From the IMG/VR virus record IMGVR_UViG_2713896901_000007, positions 1 to 8,637 of that record: a stretch of 8,637 nt of DNA; one strand, given 5' to 3'. Each line of letters starts with the position of its first letter. Within the stretch, counting starts at the first letter, position 1. This document shows, piece by piece, positions 413 to 8,637 of this stretch. Both the position numbers and the translations under genes were made by a program. The stretch comes from a virus (taxonomy: Duplodnaviria; Heunggongvirae; Uroviricota; Caudoviricetes). The notes under the pieces were generated by a model, which was given only the letters and a program-made list of their open reading frames with translations, was not told the origin of the DNA and ran no database searches.

Positions 413-604
413 TTAAAGGCCTGCCGGGATTTCGTTATTGTTCATGCGAATAACTTTGTCGACAGGATAACAGGTCCCGGGAATTTTTTGCTCAGCCGCG
501 GCAGTCATGCATTCTTCCATTGAGTCATGTATGTCAATAACAAGATCAATCGGTTCATCAGAAACAAAAAAAACAGTCAGAACGAGTATAAATGCCGTAT
601 TCAT
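413..604 (-). CDS. small hypothetical protein (63 aa) with hydrophobic N-terminus, early-left operon
   Basis: ATG at 604..602 overlaps the TGA stop of the upstream ORF (ATGA coupling). Product MNTAFILVLTVFFVSDEP... begins with a 14-residue hydrophobic stretch. It is an internal start within track ORF 413..658. Function unknown. Confidence 0.45.
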   Translation of the reverse strand: MNTAFILVLTVFFVSDEPIDLVIDIHDSMEECMTAAAEQKIPGTCYPVDKVIRMNNNEIPAGL

Positions 605-789
605 TGCCTGCATCCTGTTTGCATCAGACGTAAACGGGCCAGCATCGAAACAATGCATATTTTATTTAGCAGTTCCTGTTCGTGTTTTCTTTTATTAATG
701 GCATCTTCAGTAAATATCTGATTGCTGATAGTGACACCAATTTCAAAACAACCTTCAGACGTATTAACGTTTGGTAATAACGTTTCCAT
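601..789 (-). CDS. small hypothetical protein (62 aa), early-left operon, at the position where lambdoid phages carry kil-type genes
   Basis: ATG at 789..787 with GAGGA 7 nt upstream. The track's longer form (601..894) starts at GTG with no Shine-Dalgarno. The stop overlaps the next ORF's start. The kil analogy is positional only. Confidence 0.45.
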   Translation of the reverse strand: METLLPNVNTSEGCFEIGVTISNQIFTEDAINKRKHEQELLNKICIVSMLARLRLMQTGCRQ

Positions 790-1017
790 TATCGCGTCCT
801 CAACAATGAATTTTGTGATGCGGTGCCTGGTGCCTCCAGGTGACGTTAACCAGTTAATAATTAACGTCGGATACAGAGAATCCACCCATAACACTGTTTT
901 TAGCTTTAACTGTTCCGCGTGCGCTTAGCCGCATTCACCACATCACAAAATTCACTTTAAAAAGGGCGGCAGAGCAGTCACGGAGTAAAACTGATACCGC
1001 CAAACGCCACCAGAAAA

Positions 1018-1562: not shown

Positions 1563-2201
1563 TTACCAGTCAATCCAGAGCGGACCGTGTTCAGCGTAAA
1601 TATAACTGTACACATCCAGATTATATTTGTGGTCTGTTAAGAACAGGCCGCAAATACATGCCGAAGCTTCCAGGGCAGCGGCTCTGTTACTGAATAACCA
1701 TGTAGCAACATTCCAGCGTTTTTCTGCATCCCAGTCTTTCTCAAGGCCTGATACCATGAAGAAACCGTTAGTGTTGCCATCAAATAATTCTGTTTCCAGA
1801 TTTTTAAGCAATGCCTGATGGACTCTTGCCAGGTATTCCGCCGGAATTTCGCCACGAATTCTGATGAGATTGTCATAAACAAACATGTTCCCCGCATATG
1901 GCGATTTTTCTTTCTTGTTTTTTAAACCAGTATCATGAGCAAACTGATCAATTTCTTCTTCCGTTGGTTTCGTATTGATGTTTTGCGCTGTCGTTTCTGC
2001 AATTTTATTTGCCACACTCTCTGAGTCGTGTTTATTTACAGACGCACAGAAATACAATCCGGTAAACGCATCGCGCACATTACGAGCCATATTATCAGTG
2101 TCTTTTTTCGTTACCGATTCCAATGCAAGTTCGTTCAGACGATGACGAAGTGTGTGTACTGCAATCTCCTGGATTGAAGTAGGTAAATCTTTAAATTCCA
2201 T
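1563..2201 (-). CDS. uncharacterised protein (212 aa from ATG 2201; 216 aa if started at 2213), second cistron downstream of pL
   Basis: Long clean ORF. The ATG at 2201 has GAGG 6 nt upstream; the alternative ATG at 2213 overlaps the upstream gene's stop by 1 nt (TGATG). I see no Walker, HTH or other recognisable motif by eye. Confidence 0.8.
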   Translation of the reverse strand: MEFKDLPTSIQEIAVHTLRHRLNELALESVTKKDTDNMARNVRDAFTGLYFCASVNKHDSESVANKIAETTAQNINTKPTEEEIDQFAHDTGLKNKKEKSPYAGNMFVYDNLIRIRGEIPAEYLARVHQALLKNLETELFDGNTNGFFMVSGLEKDWDAEKRWNVATWLFSNRAAALEASACICGLFLTDHKYNLDVYSYIYAEHGPLWIDW

Positions 2202-2212
2202 CGTCAACCTCA

Positions 2213-2365
2213 TCAGTCAGAGTTTCTTGCTAACCAGCGATGCGCGCCAGCTTCGGTTTTAAACGTTTTACTTTTGGTATACGTCATCGCGGTGAATGTG
2301 CCGTCCTGGTTGGGAAACACGCCGTACACCAGAGATTCGTTGTTGCCAAGATCGATAGTATCCAT
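2213..2365 (-). CDS. small protein (50 aa), probably YdaF/YdaG-like Rac early-left protein
   Basis: ATG at 2365..2363 with TGAGG 5 nt upstream (MDTIDLGNNESLVYGVFPNQDG...). The track's 76-aa form starts at 2443 with no clear Shine-Dalgarno. Family assignment is from memory of Rac gene order and is unverified. Confidence 0.55.
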   Translation of the reverse strand: MDTIDLGNNESLVYGVFPNQDGTFTAMTYTKSKTFKTEAGAHRWLARNSD

Positions 2366-2542
2366 GCTGACCTCATTTCCCCTTAACGCCGGGGTAGCGG
2401 AACAAAAACCTGCTGCATAGTTAAAGTTGAACCCTGCCGTCATGTTCTTACGCCTCGGGCTGGCTACTTAACCCCTGACCACTGCCTGGTAACTCGAAGT
2501 ATTGCCCTGCGTGCTGTGGGGCGGGGTGGGTGGCATGCTGGA

Positions 2543-2571
2543 ACTATAGGAAATGCCTAATTGATTGTCAA
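2543..2571 (-). promoter_or_regulatory. pL-like sigma70 promoter (TTGACA-17 nt-TATAGT) reading leftward
   Basis: Minus-strand -35 TTGACA at 2571..2566 and -10 TATAGT at 2548..2543 with a 17-nt spacer. The surrounding 40 nt nearly duplicate the pR module, including TTAGGC in the spacer. Confidence 0.6.
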
Positions 2572-2584
2572 TAGGCTTTGCCTA
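2572..2584. promoter_or_regulatory. OL-like operator, inverted repeat TAGGC-N3-GCCTA abutting the pL -35
   Basis: Perfect 5-bp arms, TAGGCTTTGCCTA. The same half-site recurs at 2555..2560 and in the racR-ydaS intergenic region. Confidence 0.5.
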
Positions 2585-2681
2585 ATATTCTGGGCGTAAC
2601 CTAATAGGTGATGCGAATGAAAAAAGTGATGGGAGGGATTAAATAACGGAATCCAGGAGTTTTCCGTCAGACCATATAAGT

Positions 2682-3158
2682 TTAAGTTCCAGTTTTTGTG
2701 ATGCTCTGGCTTTTCCGTTCAGATTCTAGAACTTTCAGATACTTACCAACTTTCATTTCCATCGCTGCTATGTAGGCGCGAACATCGTGGTCAACCCAGT
2801 CTGGTTCTGTAGCATTTCCTGATAACAGGAAAGCTACAATCGCTCTTATTTCATCAGAGGCTGCCTGATAAAGGTTGTTTATGTCTAAAAGTTCACTTTT
2901 TGTATCTGAGTTGGTGGGGGTTGGTATGGGGTATTCGTTAAGCCCCCAATGCTCTGGACCAACAACATCAGAAAAGAAACGCCATAATTCTGGAAGTTTA
3001 TCTTTACTTATGGAGCCTTTCTTAATCCAGTCATAGATTGATGGTGGTTGGACTTTGAAGTGGCGAGCGACCTCCGCCTTTGATTTGACGGATCCCGATG
3101 CGATTTTTTTGTTAATGGCCTGCTCTATTGCTCGGCCTAAGTCTTTACCACTAAGCAT
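2682..3158 (-). CDS. racR: prophage repressor, cI-like XRE-family HTH (158 aa), RacR-like
   Basis: N-terminal Cro/C1-type HTH (SKAEVARHFKVQPPSIYDWIKKGSIS). Divergent from a 98-aa Cro-like and 141-aa gene pair, matching Rac racR-ydaS-ydaT order and sizes. AGGAG lies about 10 nt upstream of the ATG at 3158. Confidence 0.85.
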   Translation of the reverse strand: MLSGKDLGRAIEQAINKKIASGSVKSKAEVARHFKVQPPSIYDWIKKGSISKDKLPELWRFFSDVVGPEHWGLNEYPIPTPTNSDTKSELLDINNLYQAASDEIRAIVAFLLSGNATEPDWVDHDVRAYIAAMEMKVGKYLKVLESERKSQSITKTGT

Positions 3159-3212
3159 TGCTTAATATTCTCCTATGCTCATTGTATTAGGCAATCCCTA
3201 TCCTCACTGCAT

Positions 3213-3252
3213 TAGGCATAGCCTATTGACATTGGTGTTAGGCGTCGCCTAA
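3213..3252. promoter_or_regulatory. OR-like operators: TAGGC-ata-GCCTA (3213..3225) and TTAGGCG-t-CGCCTAA (3238..3252)
   Basis: Two inverted repeats sharing the TAGGC/GCCTA half-site. One abuts the pR -35 and the other lies across the spacer and -10. A possible leftward pRM -10 (TACAAT, plus coordinates 3186..3181) with a poor -35 sits nearby. Confidence 0.55.
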
Positions 3253-3255
3253 TAT
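3226..3255 (+). promoter_or_regulatory. pR-like sigma70 promoter (TTGACA-18 nt-TAATAT) for the ydaS operon
   Basis: -35 at 3226..3231 and -10 at 3250..3255, about 27 nt upstream of the ydaS ATG. GGAG Shine-Dalgarno at 3270..3273. Confidence 0.6.
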
Positions 3256-3281
3256 CTCTGTGTGTTTTTGGAGTTCATTCG

Positions 3282-3578
3282 ATGAAAAAAGAGAACTATT
3301 CATTCAAGCGAGCTTGTGCTGTTGTCGGTGGGCAATCAGCAATGGCTAGGCTTTTAGGTGTATCACCTCCAAGCGTAAATCAATGGATCAAAGGGGTACG
3401 TCAATTGCCTGCAGAGAGATGTCCAGCAATTGAACGTGCAACAAGAGGTGACGTTCTGTGCGAAGAACTTCGTCCTGATATTGACTGGTCATATTTACGA
3501 CGTTCGGCATGTTATTCGCAGAATATGTCAGTGAAGCAACTAAATGACAGTAACAAATCCTCATTTGATCATACCTGA
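3282..3578 (+). CDS. ydaS: Cro-like HTH regulator (98 aa), YdaS family
   Basis: HTH segment SAMARLLGVSPPSVNQWIKG. It is the first gene divergent from the repressor, and its length matches Rac YdaS. Confidence 0.8.
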   Translation: MKKENYSFKRACAVVGGQSAMARLLGVSPPSVNQWIKGVRQLPAERCPAIERATRGDVLCEELRPDIDWSYLRRSACYSQNMSVKQLNDSNKSSFDHT

Positions 3579-3600
3579 AACATCAAGAGGAAAATGATTC

Positions 3601-4026
3601 ATGAAAATCAAGCATGAACACATCCGCATAGCGATGAATGCCTGGGCGCGTCCTGATGGCGAAAAGGTTCCGGCAGCTGAAATAACCCGGGCTTATTTTG
3701 AGTTGGGTATGACGTTTCCTGAACTGTACGACAACAGCCATCCTGAAGCCCTGGCTCGCAATACCCAGAAAATTTTCCGCTGGGTAGAGAAAGACACTCC
3801 TGATGCGGTTGAAAAAATTCAGGCGTTGTTACCTGCGATCGAAAAGGCAATGCCGCCTCTGCTGGTGGCCCGAATGCGCAGTCACAGTTCAGCCTATTTT
3901 CGGGAGCTGCTGGAGACGCGGGAGCGGCTGGTGAGGGATGCAGATGATTTTATTGCGGTGGCAATTGCTGGTTTCAACCAGATTAATCGCGGTGGCCCGG
4001 CAGGAAATGCCGTGGTGATGCACTAA
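3601..4026 (+). CDS. ydaT: YdaT-family protein (141 aa), at the cII position
   Basis: Immediately follows ydaS (22-nt gap, AAGAGG upstream). Size and position match Rac YdaT. Assigned by synteny and memory, not by search. Confidence 0.7.
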   Translation: MKIKHEHIRIAMNAWARPDGEKVPAAEITRAYFELGMTFPELYDNSHPEALARNTQKIFRWVEKDTPDAVEKIQALLPAIEKAMPPLLVARMRSHSSAYFRELLETRERLVRDADDFIAVAIAGFNQINRGGPAGNAVVMH

Positions 4027-4049
4027 AAGCACGGTGTTCGGGGTTTTTT

Positions 4050-5012
4050 ATGAGCAGCAAGCTTCATGGTCTTGTCTGGGAAGGGTGCGCCTTCACCGGC
4101 ATGATCTTATCCAGGGTGGCAGTGATGGCTCGTCTTGCAGACTACAGCAATGATGAAGGTGTGTCATGGCCTGCAGTAGAGACCATTCGTCGTCAGATTG
4201 GGGCAAAGAGTGAATCAACGGTTAAAGCGGCGATAGCGGAACTGGAAAAGAGCGGCTGGCTGACAAAGGAAGAGCGTAAGGTTGGCGGACGTAACGTAAG
4301 CAATATCTACCGGCTTAATGTGGAAAAACTCGAAGCTGCAGCAGCGGCGGCGCGAGAGGCATATAAACCGAAAAGAAAAATTAGCCCGGCAAAAAATGAC
4401 CCGTTAACGGTTGACCCGTCAAATATTGACCCCTCAACGGTTGACCCGTCAAATTTTGATGGCTCAACCGTTGATAAAAAACGGTCGGTTAGGGGGGCGA
4501 TGATTGACCCCGATCCGTCAGTATTAAAATCTGATCCGTCAGATAAAAGATCTTCTTGTCCGGACGCTTTGCAACCGGACCCGCAGACGGCTGAACAGGA
4601 TTTTTTAACCCGACACCCTGATGCGGTTGTGTTCAGTGCGAAAAAACGCCAGTGGGGAAGTCAGGAAGATTTGGCGTGCGCACAGTGGATCTGGGGACGA
4701 ATCGTGAGTCTTTACGAGCAGGCGGCCAGCGATGATGGCGAGATCACGCGACCGAAAGAACCAAACTGGACCGCGTGGGCCAATGACGTGCGCACAATGC
4801 GGATGCTGGATGGCAGAACTCACAGACAAATTTGCGAAATGTTTGGGCGGGTACAGCGGGATCCATTCTGGGTAAAAAACATCATGAGCCCGTCAAAGCT
4901 CCGCGAAAAATGGGACGAACTGGTCATCCGCCTGGGGCGTTCACCTGTACAGCGTTGTGTGAATCATATTTCTGAACCGGACACCGAAATTCCGCCGGGG
5001 TTCAGGGGGTAA
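4050..5012 (+). CDS. replication initiator, lambda O-like (320 aa), with ori iterons inside its linker
   Basis: N-terminal winged-helix initiator-like segment. Central DPSxx peptide repeats are encoded by 15-bp tandem DNA repeats. The gene directly precedes a DnaC-like gene. Corresponds positionally to Rac ydaU. Confidence 0.75.
   Translation: MSSKLHGLVWEGCAFTGMILSRVAVMARLADYSNDEGVSWPAVETIRRQIGAKSESTVKAAIAELEKSGWLTKEERKVGGRNVSNIYRLNVEKLEAAAAAAREAYKPKRKISPAKNDPLTVDPSNIDPSTVDPSNFDGSTVDKKRSVRGAMIDPDPSVLKSDPSDKRSSCPDALQPDPQTAEQDFLTRHPDAVVFSAKKRQWGSQEDLACAQWIWGRIVSLYEQAASDDGEITRPKEPNWTAWANDVRTMRMLDGRTHRQICEMFGRVQRDPFWVKNIMSPSKLREKWDELVIRLGRSPVQRCVNHISEPDTEIPPGFRG
4396..4470. repeat. five tandem ~15-bp iterons (consensus TTGACCCGTCAANNN), putative replication origin
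   Basis: Direct repeats at about 4396, 4411, 4426, 4441 and 4456, each with internal TTGAC..GTCAA dyad symmetry. Followed by duplicated GATCCGTCAG motifs at 4511..4545. Confidence 0.6.
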
Positions 5013-5018
5013 CGAACC

Positions 5019-5195
5019 ATGAAAAATATTGCGACAGGCGGCGTTCTGGAACGTATCCGCAGACTGACCCCGCCACATGTAACCGCCCCATTCAGAACGG
5101 TAGCGGAGTGGCGCGAGTGGCAACTTGCTGAAGGCCAGAAGCGTAGCGAGGAGATCAACCGCCTGAATCGCCAGTTGCGGGTGGAAAAATTATGA
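5019..5195 (+). CDS. DnaC/IstB-like helicase loader, N-terminal segment (58 aa), separated from the ATPase domain by a frame break
   Basis: ATG 5019 with AGGGGG Shine-Dalgarno, 6 nt after the O-like stop. Ends at TGA 5193..5195 just after an A5 run (5185..5189). Not in the ORF track, presumably below its length cut-off. My own translation. Confidence 0.5.
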   Translation: MKNIATGGVLERIRRLTPPHVTAPFRTVAEWREWQLAEGQKRSEEINRLNRQLRVEKL

Positions 5196-5764
5196 ATCGC
5201 TCAGGCATCCAGCCGTTGCACCGTAAATGCTCGTTTGCGAATTACCATGTACAGAACGATGGCCAGCGATACGCGTTAAGTCAGGCGAAATCCATCGCTG
5301 ATGAACTGATGACCGGATGCACAAATTTCGCGTTCAGCGGAAAACCTGGTACTGGAAAAAACCATCTGGCGGCGGCTATCGGGAATCGCCTGCTGAAAGA
5401 CGGCCAGACAGTGATAGTGGTTACTGTGGCTGATGTTATGAGTGCCCTGCACGCCAGCTATGACGACGGGCAGTCAGGTGAAAAATTTTTGCGGGAATTG
5501 TGCGAAGTGGATCTGCTGGTTCTTGATGAAATTGGCATTCAGCGTGAGACGAAAAACGAGCAGGTGGTACTGCATCAGATTGTTGATCGCCGGACAGCAT
5601 CGATGCGCAGTATGGGGATGCTGACAAACCTGAACTATGAGGCCATGAAAACGTTGCTCGGTGAGAGGGTTATGGATCGCATGACCATGAACGGCGGGCG
5701 ATGGGTTAATTTTAACTGGGAAAGCTGGCGACCGAATGTCGTCCAGCCAGGAATCACGAAGTGA
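5192..5764 (+). CDS. DnaC-like AAA+ helicase loader, ATPase domain (190 aa)
   Basis: Walker [19 protein letters not shown] and Walker [10 protein letters not shown], which I recall as close to E. coli DnaC. The ATG overlaps the upstream stop (ATGA). Corresponds positionally to Rac ydaV. Confidence 0.8.
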
Positions 5765-7321: not shown

Positions 7322-8095
7322 TTATATGCTGAAATGAATAATACTATTCCAGAGTGCAGCAGCGAAAGTCTCCTGATGATTGAGTCCTGGGAATTGTACG
7401 ATAGAAAAATTACTGTATTTTTCTGTTAAAATATTTCTCAAAACAGATTCTGCTTTAATGGCTTCAGGATATAAAGATGCGGAGTAATCAAGGCTAAGAT
7501 CTCCGTTAAGTAAGCATATGCTTTTAGTATGCTTTGATTCTGGCATATCATTTTTTATGATCTTGATGATTCTTTCATCCTGCCATAGAAGTGATGGTGC
7601 TGAGATATAATAATAGCTAAAACATGAATTGTGTTTTAAACAATCAAGAACAAAAATGGCACCTAGTGAGTGTCCCCATATACCGAGTTTGGAAGAGGTC
7701 GGAACAACGGTGCTGACCCAGGGCATGATCTGAGTTAGCAATAACTCTCGGAAAGTCTGACTTCCTCCACCAGTGAAGTAGATCCATGCTGGTTTGGAGT
7801 TATCAATAATAGCATTTTCACCACTAGGAGTGTAATCGTAAGCACGGCGGTGAATGTTAAGGTTATCCCAGGATTCATAACTAAGTGTAACTAACACTGG
7901 TGGATTGGGTAGTGCATCAATAACAGGCAGAATATCAGAAATGTAATTGTTGGCACTATTCCCATCAAGTATATAAAGAGTTGCATTATTTTTTTCAATG
8001 TTTTTTGGAGTAAAAATACATATTTTATATTTGGTGTCATGGTTAATTGAGTTAAATATGCGTGTTTGACAATGAATGTCCATATGTTTAGTCAT
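7322..8095 (-). CDS. alpha/beta-hydrolase, esterase-type (257 aa), in a low-GC segment
   Basis: GHSLGA nucleophile elbow (GxSxG), upstream LDGN motif and a C-terminal GLNH segment, resembling the Fes/IroE putative-esterase fold as I remember it. ATG 8095 with GGGGAGAA upstream. No N-terminal signal peptide. Confidence 0.75.
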   Translation of the reverse strand: MTKHMDIHCQTRIFNSINHDTKYKICIFTPKNIEKNNATLYILDGNSANNYISDILPVIDALPNPPVLVTLSYESWDNLNIHRRAYDYTPSGENAIIDNSKPAWIYFTGGGSQTFRELLLTQIMPWVSTVVPTSSKLGIWGHSLGAIFVLDCLKHNSCFSYYYISAPSLLWQDERIIKIIKNDMPESKHTKSICLLNGDLSLDYSASLYPEAIKAESVLRNILTEKYSNFSIVQFPGLNHQETFAAALWNSIIHFSI

Positions 8096-8460: not shown

Positions 8461-8637
8461 TTATGGGACGTCTGTCTTTCTGACCGATTTCATATTGGCG
8501 AGGTAATGGGAAGTTAAGTAGAATGGCTGCGGGTGCTTGAGGCTATCTGTCTCAGGCATGAACACCAAAGGCAGATAGAGAAAAGCCCCAGTTAACATTA
8601 CGCGTCCTGCAAGACGCTTAACATTAATCTGAGGCTC
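8461..8637 (-). CDS. possible 3' end of a gene entering from the right window edge (58 codons, no start in window)
   Basis: My manual translation of the minus frame is open from 8637 to a TAA at 8463..8461 (...LAGRVMLTGAFLYLPLVFMPETDSLKHPQPFYLTSHYLANMKSVRKTDVP). An open frame of this length could be chance. Confidence 0.2.
   Translation of the reverse strand, partial: EPQINVKRLAGRVMLTGAFLYLPLVFMPETDSLKHPQPFYLTSHYLANMKSVRKTDVP

What the first reader, a model, noticed from the sequence alone, without database searches (positions are those of the whole stretch)
2543..3255. Duplicated operator-promoter modules flank the repressor gene (OL/pL and OR/pR)
The minus-strand segment TAGGCAAAGCCTATTGACAATCAATTAGGCATTTCCTATAGT (plus 2584..2543) and the plus-strand segment TAGGCATAGCCTATTGACATTGGTGTTAGGCGTCGCCTAATAT (3213..3255) share the same layout. 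Each has an inverted repeat TAGGC-N3-GCCTA abutting a consensus -35 and a TTAGGC half-site in the spacer. This defines a probable repressor half-site (TTAGGC) and shows both early operons under one repressor.
Basis: seen in the sequence. Interest (0 to 1): 0.5.

Follow-up and report, generated by a model that had tools for sequence, protein, structure and literature searches.

The report
Rac-type prophage repressor's two operator-promoter sets
The repressor gene of a Rac-like E. coli prophage has the same repressor-binding sites on both sides, each laid over a strong outward promoter; this is the ordinary phage-lambda layout, the right-hand set is already proven experimentally in E. coli K-12, and the left-hand set seems not to have been described.

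Summary
Both quoted strings sit exactly where stated. The palindrome TAGGC-N3-GCCTA occurs three times in perfect form (0 expected by chance), and only beside racR.

The "half-site in the spacer" is the first half of a second full palindrome that overlaps the -10 hexamer. Each module therefore reads operator, TTGACA, N6-7, operator/-10. The right side has two further sites and the left side has one weak candidate.

The right module (OR/pR) is already published for the near-identical K-12 locus. That work covers RacR footprints, the motif (T/A)TAGGC-n3-GCCTA(T/A), the mapped ydaS start site and -10 mutagenesis.

I did not find the left module (OL/pL) described in the papers I could search. Comparative evidence supports it strongly:
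- It recurs downstream of RacR homologues in 9 of 10 loci chosen by protein alone, across six genera, with unalignable flanks.
- In 58 close relatives, variation avoids the half-sites and promoter hexamers (4/70 against 90/192 columns, p = 3e-11).
- Published RNA-seq shows the leftward genes are derepressed when RacR is depleted.

In this window pL would drive a ydfA-like gene, DicF and DicB.

This is a textbook lambdoid architecture, half already known and half a new member of a known kind. Interest is low to moderate.

The parts
2547..2559 (.). OL1: the promoter-proximal operator. It reads TAGGCATTTCCTA on the minus strand (one mismatch to TAGGC-N3-GCCTA). It fills the pL spacer, and its last two bases begin the -10 hexamer.
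   Evidence: Conserved at a fixed 25-bp distance from OL2 in Escherichia, Mixta, Morganella, Proteus, Achromobacter and Pigmentiphaga loci.
2572..2584 (.). OL2: a perfect palindrome, TAGGCAAAGCCTA on the minus strand, directly abutting the pL -35 hexamer.
   Evidence: In 58 close relatives only its N3 spacer varies.
2591..2603 (.). Possible OL3: a weak site, TAGGTTACGCCCA on the minus strand (two mismatches), with its centre 19 bp from OL2.
   Evidence: Only the ATTAGGT half is conserved within Escherichia, K-12 has three mismatches, and distant loci show no counterpart at a fixed position. This part is doubtful.
2543..2571 (-). pL: the predicted leftward early promoter. The -35 TTGACA is at 2571..2566, the spacer is 17 nt, and the -10 TATAGT is at 2548..2543. 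The predicted start is about A2536.
   Evidence: 11/12 match, the best in the window. Both hexamers are invariant in 58 relatives and conserved across genera. The start site is inferred, not mapped.
2366..2536 (-). Predicted pL leader, about 171 nt. The first ~60 nt are C-rich and poorly structured.
   Evidence: The 5' ~100 nt of the predicted leader (window 2440-2539) is 95-98% conserved in E. coli phages that carry other immunity regions.
2213..2365 (-). First gene of the leftward operon: a DUF1391 (ydfA/ydaF-like) protein of 50 aa. The 76-aa ORF call is over-extended.
   Evidence: Pfam PF07151, E = 1e-28. The alignment with Qin ydfA places the start codon at 2365..2363.
2682..3158 (-). racR: repressor of 158 aa with an N-terminal helix-turn-helix and no peptidase domain.
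   Evidence: It is 99% identical to E. coli RacR.
3152..3164 (.). OR4: TAAGCATTGCTTA (two mismatches), lying across the racR start codon. This is the site called O3 in PMC9638921.
   Evidence: literature. A site at -6 relative to the repressor ATG is present in all homologue classes examined.
3188..3200 (.). OR3: TAGGCAATCCCTA (one mismatch), over the -35 region of the leaderless racR promoter (the -10 GAGAAT lies at 3167-3172, read on the minus strand).
   Evidence: The racR promoters were mapped in K-12.
3213..3225 (.). OR2: a perfect palindrome, TAGGCATAGCCTA, directly abutting the pR -35 hexamer.
   Evidence: Only the spacer varies among relatives.
3239..3251 (.). OR1: a perfect palindrome, TAGGCGTCGCCTA, filling the pR spacer and overlapping the -10 hexamer.
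   Evidence: In K-12 this promoter region is protected at the lowest RacR concentration tested.
3226..3255 (+). pR (PydaST): -35 TTGACA at 3226-3231, 18-nt spacer, -10 TAATAT at 3250-3255.
   Evidence: In K-12 the start site was mapped by primer extension and a -10 mutation abolished activity (PMC9638921).
3282..3578 (+). ydaS: the Cro-like first gene of the rightward operon. Its helix-turn-helix is related to that of RacR.
   Evidence: Pfam YdaS_toxin and P22_Cro. RacR residues 18-46 are 41% identical to YdaS residues 9-37, E = 2e-5.
3601..4026 (+). ydaT: CII-like second gene of the rightward operon. An exact YdaT-box, ATGATTCATGAAAATCAA, lies at 3594-3611.
   Evidence: The box sequence is as published for K-12.
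964..1015 (-). DicF small RNA, a distal product of the leftward operon.
   Evidence: Rfam RF00039, 76.4 bits, E = 6e-16.
601..789 (-). DicB homologue (62 aa, cell-division inhibitor), downstream of DicF.
   Evidence: The ORF contains METLLPNVNTSEGCFEIG... The related strain RM11911 has dicB annotated at the same relative position. The match to K-12 DicB rests on my recollection of its sequence, not on an alignment run here.

Best explanation
This is the immunity region of a Rac-type lambdoid prophage.

The operator. RacR dimers recognise a 17-bp operator, ATTAGGC-N3-GCCTAAT, whose core is TAGGC-N3-GCCTA. Clusters of this operator lie on both sides of racR.

The modules. On each side two operators 25-26 bp apart bracket a near-consensus sigma-70 promoter that fires away from racR. 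The distal operator abuts the -35 hexamer. The proximal operator fills the spacer and overlaps the -10 hexamer. Bound repressor therefore blocks RNA polymerase.

The right side. OR1 and OR2 shut off pR, which drives ydaS (Cro-like), ydaT (CII-like) and the replication genes. OR3 and OR4 lie over the leaderless racR promoter and the racR start codon, and they provide autoregulation.

The left side. OL1 and OL2 shut off pL. In this window pL drives a ~171-nt leader, a ydfA-like gene, a 216-aa ORF, DicF and DicB. In K-12 Rac the corresponding operon is ydaG-ydaF-kilR-racC-recET.

What is shown and what is inferred:
- Shown for the K-12 orthologue in the literature: RacR binding at OR, the position of pR, and its repression.
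- Shown here: the motif, its statistics, its layout, and its conservation at both sides across genera.
- Inferred: RacR binding at OL, pL activity and its start site, use of the same sites by YdaS, and any OL-OR looping.
For: Sequence:
- Three perfect palindromes and four near-perfect ones occur beside racR; apart from one 2-mismatch match at 1805-1817, none occurs elsewhere in the window.
- The two best promoter matches in the window lie inside the operator pairs.
- Both flanks are homologous to K-12 Rac, and every half-site is identical.

Literature for OR/pR:
- EMSA and ChIP-qPCR: PMC5700373.
- DNase I footprints, the motif, the mapped ydaS start site and -10 mutagenesis: PMC9638921.
- 'Four operators': PMC11879457.

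Comparative evidence for OL/pL:
- Loci were fetched by RacR protein similarity only. The pair 'TAGGC-N3-GCCTA, TTGAC(A/T), N6, TAGGC-N3-NCCTA, (A/T)TA(T/G)T' lies downstream of the repressor in 9 of 10 of them. The repressors share 57-99% identity (full-length homologues) or ~75% over only the N-terminal 77 residues, across six genera, and the flanks cannot be aligned.
- In every case ORFs follow on the same strand.
- A scan of viral contigs with the DNA pattern alone returned 119 loci. Of these, 103 carry a RacR homologue next to the module, and 62 carry two divergent modules 638-642 bp apart around racR.
- In 58 distinct close relatives, 4 of 70 half-site or hexamer columns vary, against 90 of 192 other non-coding columns (Fisher p = 3e-11). 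The N3 spacers vary freely, 11 of 18.

Expression:
- ydaG, ydaF, kilR, ydaE and racC rise 40-70-fold when RacR is depleted by the C protein (PMC6765115 and PMC11014345).
- The same genes rise when racR is silenced by CRISPRi (bioRxiv 10.64898/2026.09.06.749655).
- In both experiments racR transcript falls. In the CRISPRi case Cascade sits inside racR. Read-through from the racR promoters therefore cannot explain the rise.

Domain logic:
- Proteins that share only the N-terminal 77 residues with RacR keep the same operators.
Against: - No binding, footprint or start-site data for the left module were found in the searchable papers. All support for pL is comparative or indirect.
- One protein-selected locus, Klebsiella sp. 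L009, shows no OL pair within 2.4 kb downstream.
- OL1 carries a mismatch in this window, and OL3 is weak and not conserved. The left cluster may therefore hold only two sites.
- The viral loci were selected by the pattern itself, so their modules are not independent evidence. Only the adjacency of RacR and the second site cluster are independent.
- The 58 relatives share ancestry, so the Fisher p-value overstates independence.
- Derepression of leftward genes after RacR loss could be partly indirect, through YdaT or prophage excision.
Confidence: 0.85

Rival explanations
1. The left-hand sites are real RacR sites, but their main role is architectural. They would act as an auxiliary operator that helps repress pR or autoregulate racR through a 640-bp DNA loop. 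The promoter-like hexamers between them would be weak or incidental.
For: The OL2-OR2 distance is tightly kept at 638-642 bp in 62 loci. Lambda CI and the Rac-like CP-933P repressor PaaR2 form octamers, and looping between OL and OR is known for lambda (PMC8630535).
Against: The -35 TTGAC(A/T) and the -10 are conserved in position and sequence across six genera while the spacer bases change. An 11/12 promoter match is unlikely to be kept without use. Same-strand ORFs follow in every locus. In distant relatives OL lies 0.4-1.5 kb from the repressor gene, so no fixed loop geometry is conserved. The tight 638-642 bp spacing in close relatives follows simply from a fixed gene length. The two roles are not exclusive.
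Confidence: 0.07
2. Leftward genes are expressed by read-through from the racR promoters and not from a separate pL. The left palindromes would then be a roadblock or a relic.
For: A Rho-dependent terminator inside racR (trac) is reported to prevent read-through into kil. Rho defects are lethal in rac+ cells (PMC4150792). Read-through transcription therefore does exist.
Against: Leftward genes go up while racR transcript goes down, after C-protein expression and after CRISPRi with Cascade bound inside racR. The module has full promoter anatomy and is conserved.
Confidence: 0.05
3. The sites at OL are used mainly by the Cro-like YdaS rather than by RacR.
For: RacR and YdaS have related helix-turn-helix segments, 41% identical over 29 residues. 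The same operator family occurs with a YdaS-family Cro but an unrelated CI-type repressor in L071. YdaS is reported to repress its own promoter.
Against: The identical motif at OR is footprinted by RacR. Leftward genes are derepressed on RacR loss, a condition in which YdaS is abundant. Shared use by both proteins, as in lambda, is the simplest reading and is compatible with the main explanation.
Confidence: 0.03
4. The resemblance between the two modules is a chance or relic duplication with no function on the left side.
For: None beyond the absence of direct experiments on the left side.
Against: No exact motif match appeared in 200 shuffles. The module is conserved across genera with diverged flanks. 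Substitutions avoid the functional positions, p = 3e-11.
Confidence: 0.01

Closest known systems
E. coli K-12 Rac prophage racR-ydaS intergenic region (RacR operators and PydaST; PMC5700373, PMC9638921, PMC11879457)
   Same: It is orthologous. RacR is 99% identical and the intergenic region about 97% identical. It has the same four sites, the same -35 TTGACA and -10 TAATAT, and the same leaderless racR promoter -10, GAGAAT.
   Different: There are a few substitutions in operator spacers and between sites. For example OR2 has ATA here and ACA in K-12, and the -10 of PracR2 reads AGTGAG here and AGTAAG in K-12. The papers I could read describe only this right-hand region. The left module is present in K-12 too (L001 3131-3168) but is not discussed in them.
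Bacteriophage lambda OL/pL - cI - OR/pR switch
   Same: A repressor gene lies between two operator clusters, each overlapping a strong outward promoter. The operators are 17-bp pseudo-palindromes spaced about 2.4 helical turns apart (25-26 bp here; 23-24 bp in lambda, from general knowledge). The repressor mRNA is leaderless. Cro-like and CII-like genes lie to the right.
   Different: The operator sequence is unrelated. RacR has no Peptidase_S24 domain, so no RecA-mediated cleavage is expected. The right side has four sites. The left side has two convincing sites rather than three. The OL-OR distance is 641 bp rather than about 2.4 kb, because no rexAB-like genes intervene. No N/nut system is evident. 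YdaS is reported not to repress racR.
CP-933P (E. coli O157:H7) PaaR2/YdaS switch with PR933P, PRM933P and PL933P (PMC8630535)
   Same: [quoted passage not shown] This is the same logic as proposed here.
   Different: Its operators have a different sequence (18-bp palindromes, consensus GTTTAGTAA). Its repressor is different (PaaR2), and a toxin-antitoxin pair lies in the repressor operon.
Qin prophage DicA/DicC with dicBp (PMC10448788)
   Same: The leftward operon content matches: a DUF1391 gene, then DicF, then DicB. In Qin this operon is driven by dicBp, the PL analogue repressed by DicA. The window's ydfA-like gene and its ribosome-binding region align with Qin.
   Different: The operator-promoter segment does not align with dicBp. 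In the window the same cargo sits behind RacR-type operators, and there is an extra C-rich leader of about 90 nt that Qin lacks.

Membership tests
RacR operator family, (T/A)TAGGC-n3-GCCTA(T/A) | Sequence match to the published inverted repeat and to the ATTAGGC monomer site | tested here: met
   There are three perfect and four near-perfect matches beside racR, flanked by AT/AA. The motif definition comes from PMC9638921.
RacR operator family, (T/A)TAGGC-n3-GCCTA(T/A) | A RacR orthologue encoded next to the sites | tested here: met
   The 158-aa ORF at 3158..2682 is 99% identical to E. coli RacR.
RacR operator family, (T/A)TAGGC-n3-GCCTA(T/A) | Physical binding of RacR (EMSA or footprint) | not testable with these tools
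   This is published for the K-12 right-hand region only. I found no data for the left-hand sites.
Lambdoid immunity region (OL/pL - repressor - OR/pR) | The repressor gene is flanked on both sides by clusters of the same operator | tested here: met
   Also true in 9 of 10 protein-selected homologous loci.
Lambdoid immunity region (OL/pL - repressor - OR/pR) | Each cluster overlaps an outward-firing sigma-70 promoter heading an early operon | tested here: met
   At sequence level, there are 11/12 and 10/12 consensus matches with operators over the -35 edge and the -10, and ORFs follow on the correct strand. Activity is shown experimentally only for pR in K-12.
Lambdoid immunity region (OL/pL - repressor - OR/pR) | Three operators of graded affinity per cluster | tested here: inconclusive
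   The right side has four sites with 0, 0, 1 and 2 mismatches. The left side has two good sites plus one doubtful, non-conserved site.
Lambdoid immunity region (OL/pL - repressor - OR/pR) | Divergent Cro-like and CII-like genes on the right | tested here: met
   YdaS matches the YdaS_toxin and P22_Cro families, and YdaT matches the YdaT_toxin family. The CII-like function of YdaT comes from PMC9986795 and PMC11879457.
Lambdoid immunity region (OL/pL - repressor - OR/pR) | Repressor inactivated by RecA-stimulated self-cleavage (S24 peptidase domain) | tested here: not met
   RacR shows no Peptidase_S24 match. Relatives that share its N-terminal domain do carry one, for example L011. This feature defines the lambda CI subtype, not the layout.
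Lambdoid immunity region (OL/pL - repressor - OR/pR) | Cooperative long-range OL-OR looping by repressor oligomers | not testable with these tools
   Only the spacing could be measured: 641 bp here and 638-642 bp in 62 loci.
Qin DicA/dicBp-type left promoter | DicA-type operator sequences at the promoter of the DUF1391-DicF-DicB operon | tested here: not met
   The cargo genes align with Qin, but the operator-promoter segment does not. The cargo is the same and the immunity specificity is different.

The most novel reading that the evidence does not exclude
The operator-promoter cassette 'TAGGC-N3-GCCTA, TTGACA, N6, TAGGC-N3-GCCTA/-10' may be a portable immunity specificity. It would travel with a YdaS-family Cro and be served by interchangeable repressor bodies:
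- the 158-aa RacR;
- fusions of the RacR N-domain to an S24 peptidase (about 365 aa);
- a canonical HTH_3+S24 CI with no detectable similarity to RacR (L071).

In Rac-type prophages, OL and OR (about 640 bp apart) might in addition be bridged by RacR oligomers. One repressor pool would then lock both the YdaST lethality module and the left-arm division inhibitors (KilR, or DicF and DicB).
Probability: 0.3. Interest if true: 0.45.

Novelty: new member of a known kind. Interest (0 to 1): 0.25.

Why it matters
RacR is one of the few essential transcription factors of E. coli K-12, and published work treats its target as the racR-ydaS intergenic region. [quoted passage not shown]

A second RacR-controlled promoter immediately downstream of racR would give a direct explanation for the 40-70-fold induction of kilR, racC, recET and related genes when RacR falls. 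In prophages like this one it would put the division inhibitors DicF and DicB under RacR.

It also gives a defined pair of sites for testing cooperative or looped repression. None of this changes how lambdoid switches are understood; it completes the map of a well-studied cryptic prophage.

Tried and rejected
- **Structured leader RNA.** I asked whether the pL leader is a structured RNA, such as a put-like antiterminator or a known family. Rfam at E <= 1 found nothing there. The leader folds worse than shuffled sequence, z = +1.4. It looks more like an unstructured C-rich segment, possibly rut-like; I did not pursue this.
- **YdaT at pL.** I looked for a YdaT-box at pL, because the spacer contains AATCAA. 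Only that half-site is present. The single full box is at 3594-3611 over the ydaT start codon.
- **Third left operator.** The site at 2591-2603 has two mismatches here and three in K-12, with no fixed counterpart in distant loci. I kept it only as doubtful.
- **TTAGGC alone as a signal.** It is not enriched significantly, 7 matches against 3.6 expected. The evidence lies in the full palindrome.
- **Prior description of a Rac OL/pL.** I searched nine papers and found none. Conter et al. 1996 (J Bacteriol 178:5100, on kil) is not held in the library. As I recall, that paper and the older sbcA literature may discuss Rac-repressor control of the leftward operon. Absence from my search is therefore not proof of novelty.
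- **Solved structures.** No PDB relative of RacR was found by sequence. I made no structure prediction because it would not bear on the finding.
- **The 76-aa ORF at 2443..2213.** I rejected it as over-extended. The conserved gene starts at 2365.
Full report
**What the window is.** The 8.6-kb window is the immunity and early region of a Rac-type lambdoid prophage of Escherichia. Bases 2200-3600 are about 96% identical to racR loci in more than a thousand complete E. coli genomes, where the genes are annotated racR, ydaS and a DUF1391 family protein. No complete genome matches the whole window colinearly, so it is a mosaic.

The gene order is as follows:
- racR, 3158..2682, minus strand, 158 aa
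- ydaS, 3282-3578 (Cro-like)
- ydaT, 3601-4026 (CII-like)
- a replication organiser, 4050-5012
- an IstB/DnaC-like ATPase, 5192-5764

To the left, on the minus strand, lie:
- a DUF1391 gene
- a 216-aa ORF
- DicF RNA, 1015..964 (Rfam 76 bits)
- a DicB homologue, 789..601

**Checking the observation.** Both quoted strings are present exactly at the stated coordinates. The exact palindrome TAGGC-N3-GCCTA occurs three times, at 2572-2584, 3213-3225 and 3239-3251. It appeared in none of 200 dinucleotide-preserving shuffles.

Allowing two mismatches gives eight hits against 2.2 expected. Seven of them lie beside racR: 2547, 2572 and 2591 on the left, and 3152, 3188, 3213 and 3239 on the right.

The window contains only two sigma-70-like sites scoring at least 10 of 12:
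- TTGACA, 17 nt, TATAGT on the minus strand (2571..2543)
- TTGACA, 18 nt, TAATAT on the plus strand (3226..3255)

That number is about what chance gives. Their positions inside operator pairs are what matter.

The "TTAGGC half-site in the spacer" is the first half of a second complete palindrome: TAGGCGTCGCCTA on the right, and TAGGCATTTCCTA on the minus strand on the left. Its last two bases start the -10 hexamer. Each module is therefore [operator][TTGACA][6-7 nt][operator overlapping the -10], with operator centres 25 bp (left) or 26 bp (right) apart.

**What is already known.** The window's two flanks of racR align with K-12 Rac at 95-97% identity, and every half-site is identical. Published K-12 work covers the right side:
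- Krishnamurthi et al. 2017 noted three GCCTAA/TTAGGC repeats in the 123-bp racR-ydaS intergenic region. They showed RacR binding by thermal shift, EMSA (three complexes) and ChIP-qPCR, and repression of a promoter fusion (PMC5700373).
- The 2022 NAR paper mapped a single ydaS start site with -35 TTGACA and -10 TAATAT, and abolished the promoter by mutating the -10.
- The same paper footprinted RacR. Protection of the ydaS promoter appeared at the lowest concentration, and protection of the racR promoters at higher concentrations.
- It derived ATTAGGC as the monomer site and (T/A)TAGGC-n3-GCCTA(T/A) as the operator. One operator lies across the racR ATG (PMC9638921).
- A 2025 paper refers to four operators (PMC11879457).
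- racR mRNA is leaderless (PMC4681348).

The OR/pR half of the finding and the half-site are therefore correct and already published.

**The left module.** None of the papers I could search describes RacR sites or a promoter downstream of racR. [quoted passage not shown] I could not read Conter et al. 1996, so an older description cannot be excluded.

*Protein-selected loci.* I fetched loci from species-representative genomes using the RacR protein alone. In 9 of 10 usable loci a pair of TAGGC-N3-GCCTA sites exactly 25 bp apart lies downstream of the repressor gene. TTGAC(A/T) abuts the first site, and (A/T)TA(T/G)T overlaps the end of the second. The pair always points away from the repressor. 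The loci come from Escherichia coli, E. ruysiae, Mixta, Morganella, Proteus, Achromobacter and Pigmentiphaga. The full-length homologues are 57-99% identical to RacR; the Achromobacter and Pigmentiphaga proteins share ~75% identity over only the N-terminal 77 residues. The surrounding sequence cannot be aligned. ORFs follow on the same strand. The exception is a Klebsiella locus with no pair within 2.4 kb.

*Variable distance.* In some classes the pair lies 0.4-1.5 kb beyond the repressor gene, with extra genes in between, much as rexAB separates cI from OL in lambda.

*Fixed right-hand positions.* On the right the sites sit at fixed positions relative to the repressor ATG. These are -66, -41 and -6 in distant classes, and -93, -67, -42 and -6 in the E. 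coli Rac class.

Of these, 103 have a RacR homologue beside the module. In 62, two divergent modules lie 638-642 bp apart around racR.

*Substitution pattern.* Among 58 distinct close relatives, only 4 of 70 half-site and hexamer columns vary, against 90 of 192 other non-coding columns (Fisher p = 3e-11). The central N3 spacers vary in 11 of 18 columns. The sequences are related, so the p-value is generous, but the pattern is plain in the alignment.

**Expression evidence from the literature.** When RacR is depleted by an interfering C protein, ydaG, ydaF, kilR, ydaE and racC rise 40-70-fold while racR falls (PMC6765115 and PMC11014345). When racR is silenced by Cascade bound inside its coding sequence, ydaG, kilR, ydaE, racC, recE, recT and others are derepressed (bioRxiv 10.64898/2026.09.06.749655). 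Transcription through racR is reduced or blocked in these experiments. The leftward genes must therefore have their own RacR-sensitive promoter between racR and ydaG, which is where pL lies. This is an inference. Indirect effects through YdaT or prophage excision are not excluded.

**Mechanism.** My reading is classical promoter occlusion. A RacR dimer occupies the 17-bp ATTAGGC-N3-GCCTAAT site. On each side, one dimer sits against the -35 and one lies over the spacer and -10. Adjacent dimers about 2.4 turns apart probably bind cooperatively, as proposed for OR.

OR3 and OR4 lie over the leaderless racR promoter and the racR start codon, and they give autoregulation.

YdaS probably uses the same sites. 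Its helix-turn-helix is 41% identical to that of RacR over 29 residues, and it is reported to repress its own promoter.

RacR has no S24 peptidase domain, so induction is not by RecA cleavage.

Looping between OL and OR is possible but untested.

**What pL drives here.** The predicted start is about A2536. A leader of about 171 nt follows. Its first 60 nt are C-rich (C/G ratio 1.7) and it is less structured than shuffled sequence. This leader is 95-98% conserved in E. coli phages that have other immunity regions.

The first gene is a 50-aa ydfA-like DUF1391 protein starting at 2365. The 76-aa ORF call is over-extended. Further downstream come DicF and DicB.

The cargo aligns with the Qin dicBF operon, whose promoter dicBp is the DicA-repressed PL analogue (PMC10448788). 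The operator-promoter segment does not align. The same cargo therefore sits behind a different immunity specificity.

**Comparison and novelty.**
- The layout is that of lambda, with different operator sequences, four right-hand sites, two convincing left-hand sites, a short 641-bp OL-OR distance, and a repressor that lacks a cleavage domain.
- The closest experimental precedent for the left module is PL933P of the Rac-like prophage CP-933P. It was found by the same reasoning and shown to be regulated by PaaR2 and YdaS (PMC8630535).
- The right half of the finding is already known.
- The left half is a new member of a known kind.

**Side observation.** The same operator cassette also occurs with other repressor bodies:
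- about 365-aa proteins that join the RacR N-terminal 77 residues (about 75% identity) to a Peptidase_S24 domain;
- in L071, a 213-aa HTH_3+S24 CI with no detectable similarity to RacR, paired with a YdaS-family Cro. Three sites lie in their intergenic region and a perfect pair at the PL position.

This suggests the specificity is portable between repressor scaffolds. I did not test this further.

**Verdict.** Confidence that pL/OL is a functional RacR-repressed promoter is about 0.85. Interest is low to moderate at 0.25. The result is what a lambdoid specialist would expect. It does fill a gap in the map of an essential E. coli regulator, and it is directly testable.

Noticed in passing
window 964-1015 (-), 757-966 (-), 601-789 (-): DicF RNA (Rfam 76 bits) lies on the minus strand, with a sub-threshold STnc100 match beside it and a DicB homologue downstream. 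The left arm of this Rac-type prophage therefore carries the Qin-type dicBF cargo, presumably under RacR rather than DicA control.
   Followed up: partly
window 2366-2536 (-): The predicted pL leader is about 171 nt. Its first ~60 nt are C-rich (C/G ratio 1.7), and it is less structured than shuffled sequence (z = +1.4). Its first ~100 nt (window 2440-2539) are 95-98% conserved in E. coli phages that carry unrelated immunity regions, and most of it is absent from Qin. It may be a Rho-loading (rut-like) or other leader element.
   Followed up: partly
L071 10037-11320; L011 2501-3710; also L045, L105, L121, L131: The same TAGGC-N3-GCCTA operator-promoter cassette occurs with repressors of different build. 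One is an HTH_3+Peptidase_S24 CI with no similarity to RacR, paired with a YdaS-family Cro. Others are ~365-aa fusions of the RacR N-terminal 77 residues to Peptidase_S24.
   Followed up: partly
window 3594-3611: An exact copy of the published K-12 YdaT-box, ATGATTCATGAAAATCAA, overlaps the ydaT start codon. Only a lone AATCAA half-site lies in the pL spacer.
   Followed up: yes
window 2685-3158 (-) versus 3282-3575 (+): RacR residues 18-46 and YdaS residues 9-37 are 41% identical and share 'PPS(I/V)xxWIK'. The repressor and its Cro-like partner have related helix-turn-helix units, consistent with shared operators.
   Followed up: partly
window 8531-8637 (+): A sok antitoxin RNA (hok/sok family, Rfam 68 bits) is cut off by the end of the window.
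   Followed up: no
window 7322-8095 (-): A 257-aa esterase / alpha-beta-hydrolase-like ORF lies in an AT-rich stretch downstream of the replication genes. It looks like a cargo (moron-like) gene and is not present in K-12 Rac.
   Followed up: no
window 2213-2443 (-): The mechanical 76-aa ORF is an over-extension. Alignment with Qin ydfA shows the conserved DUF1391 gene starts at 2365 (50 aa) and is preceded by a GGGGAAATGAGG ribosome-binding region.
   Followed up: yes
L009 (Klebsiella sp. R390), 2501-5429: This is the only protein-selected RacR homologue locus without a recognisable OL pair within 2.4 kb downstream. Its OR1 also carries a mismatch.
   Followed up: no
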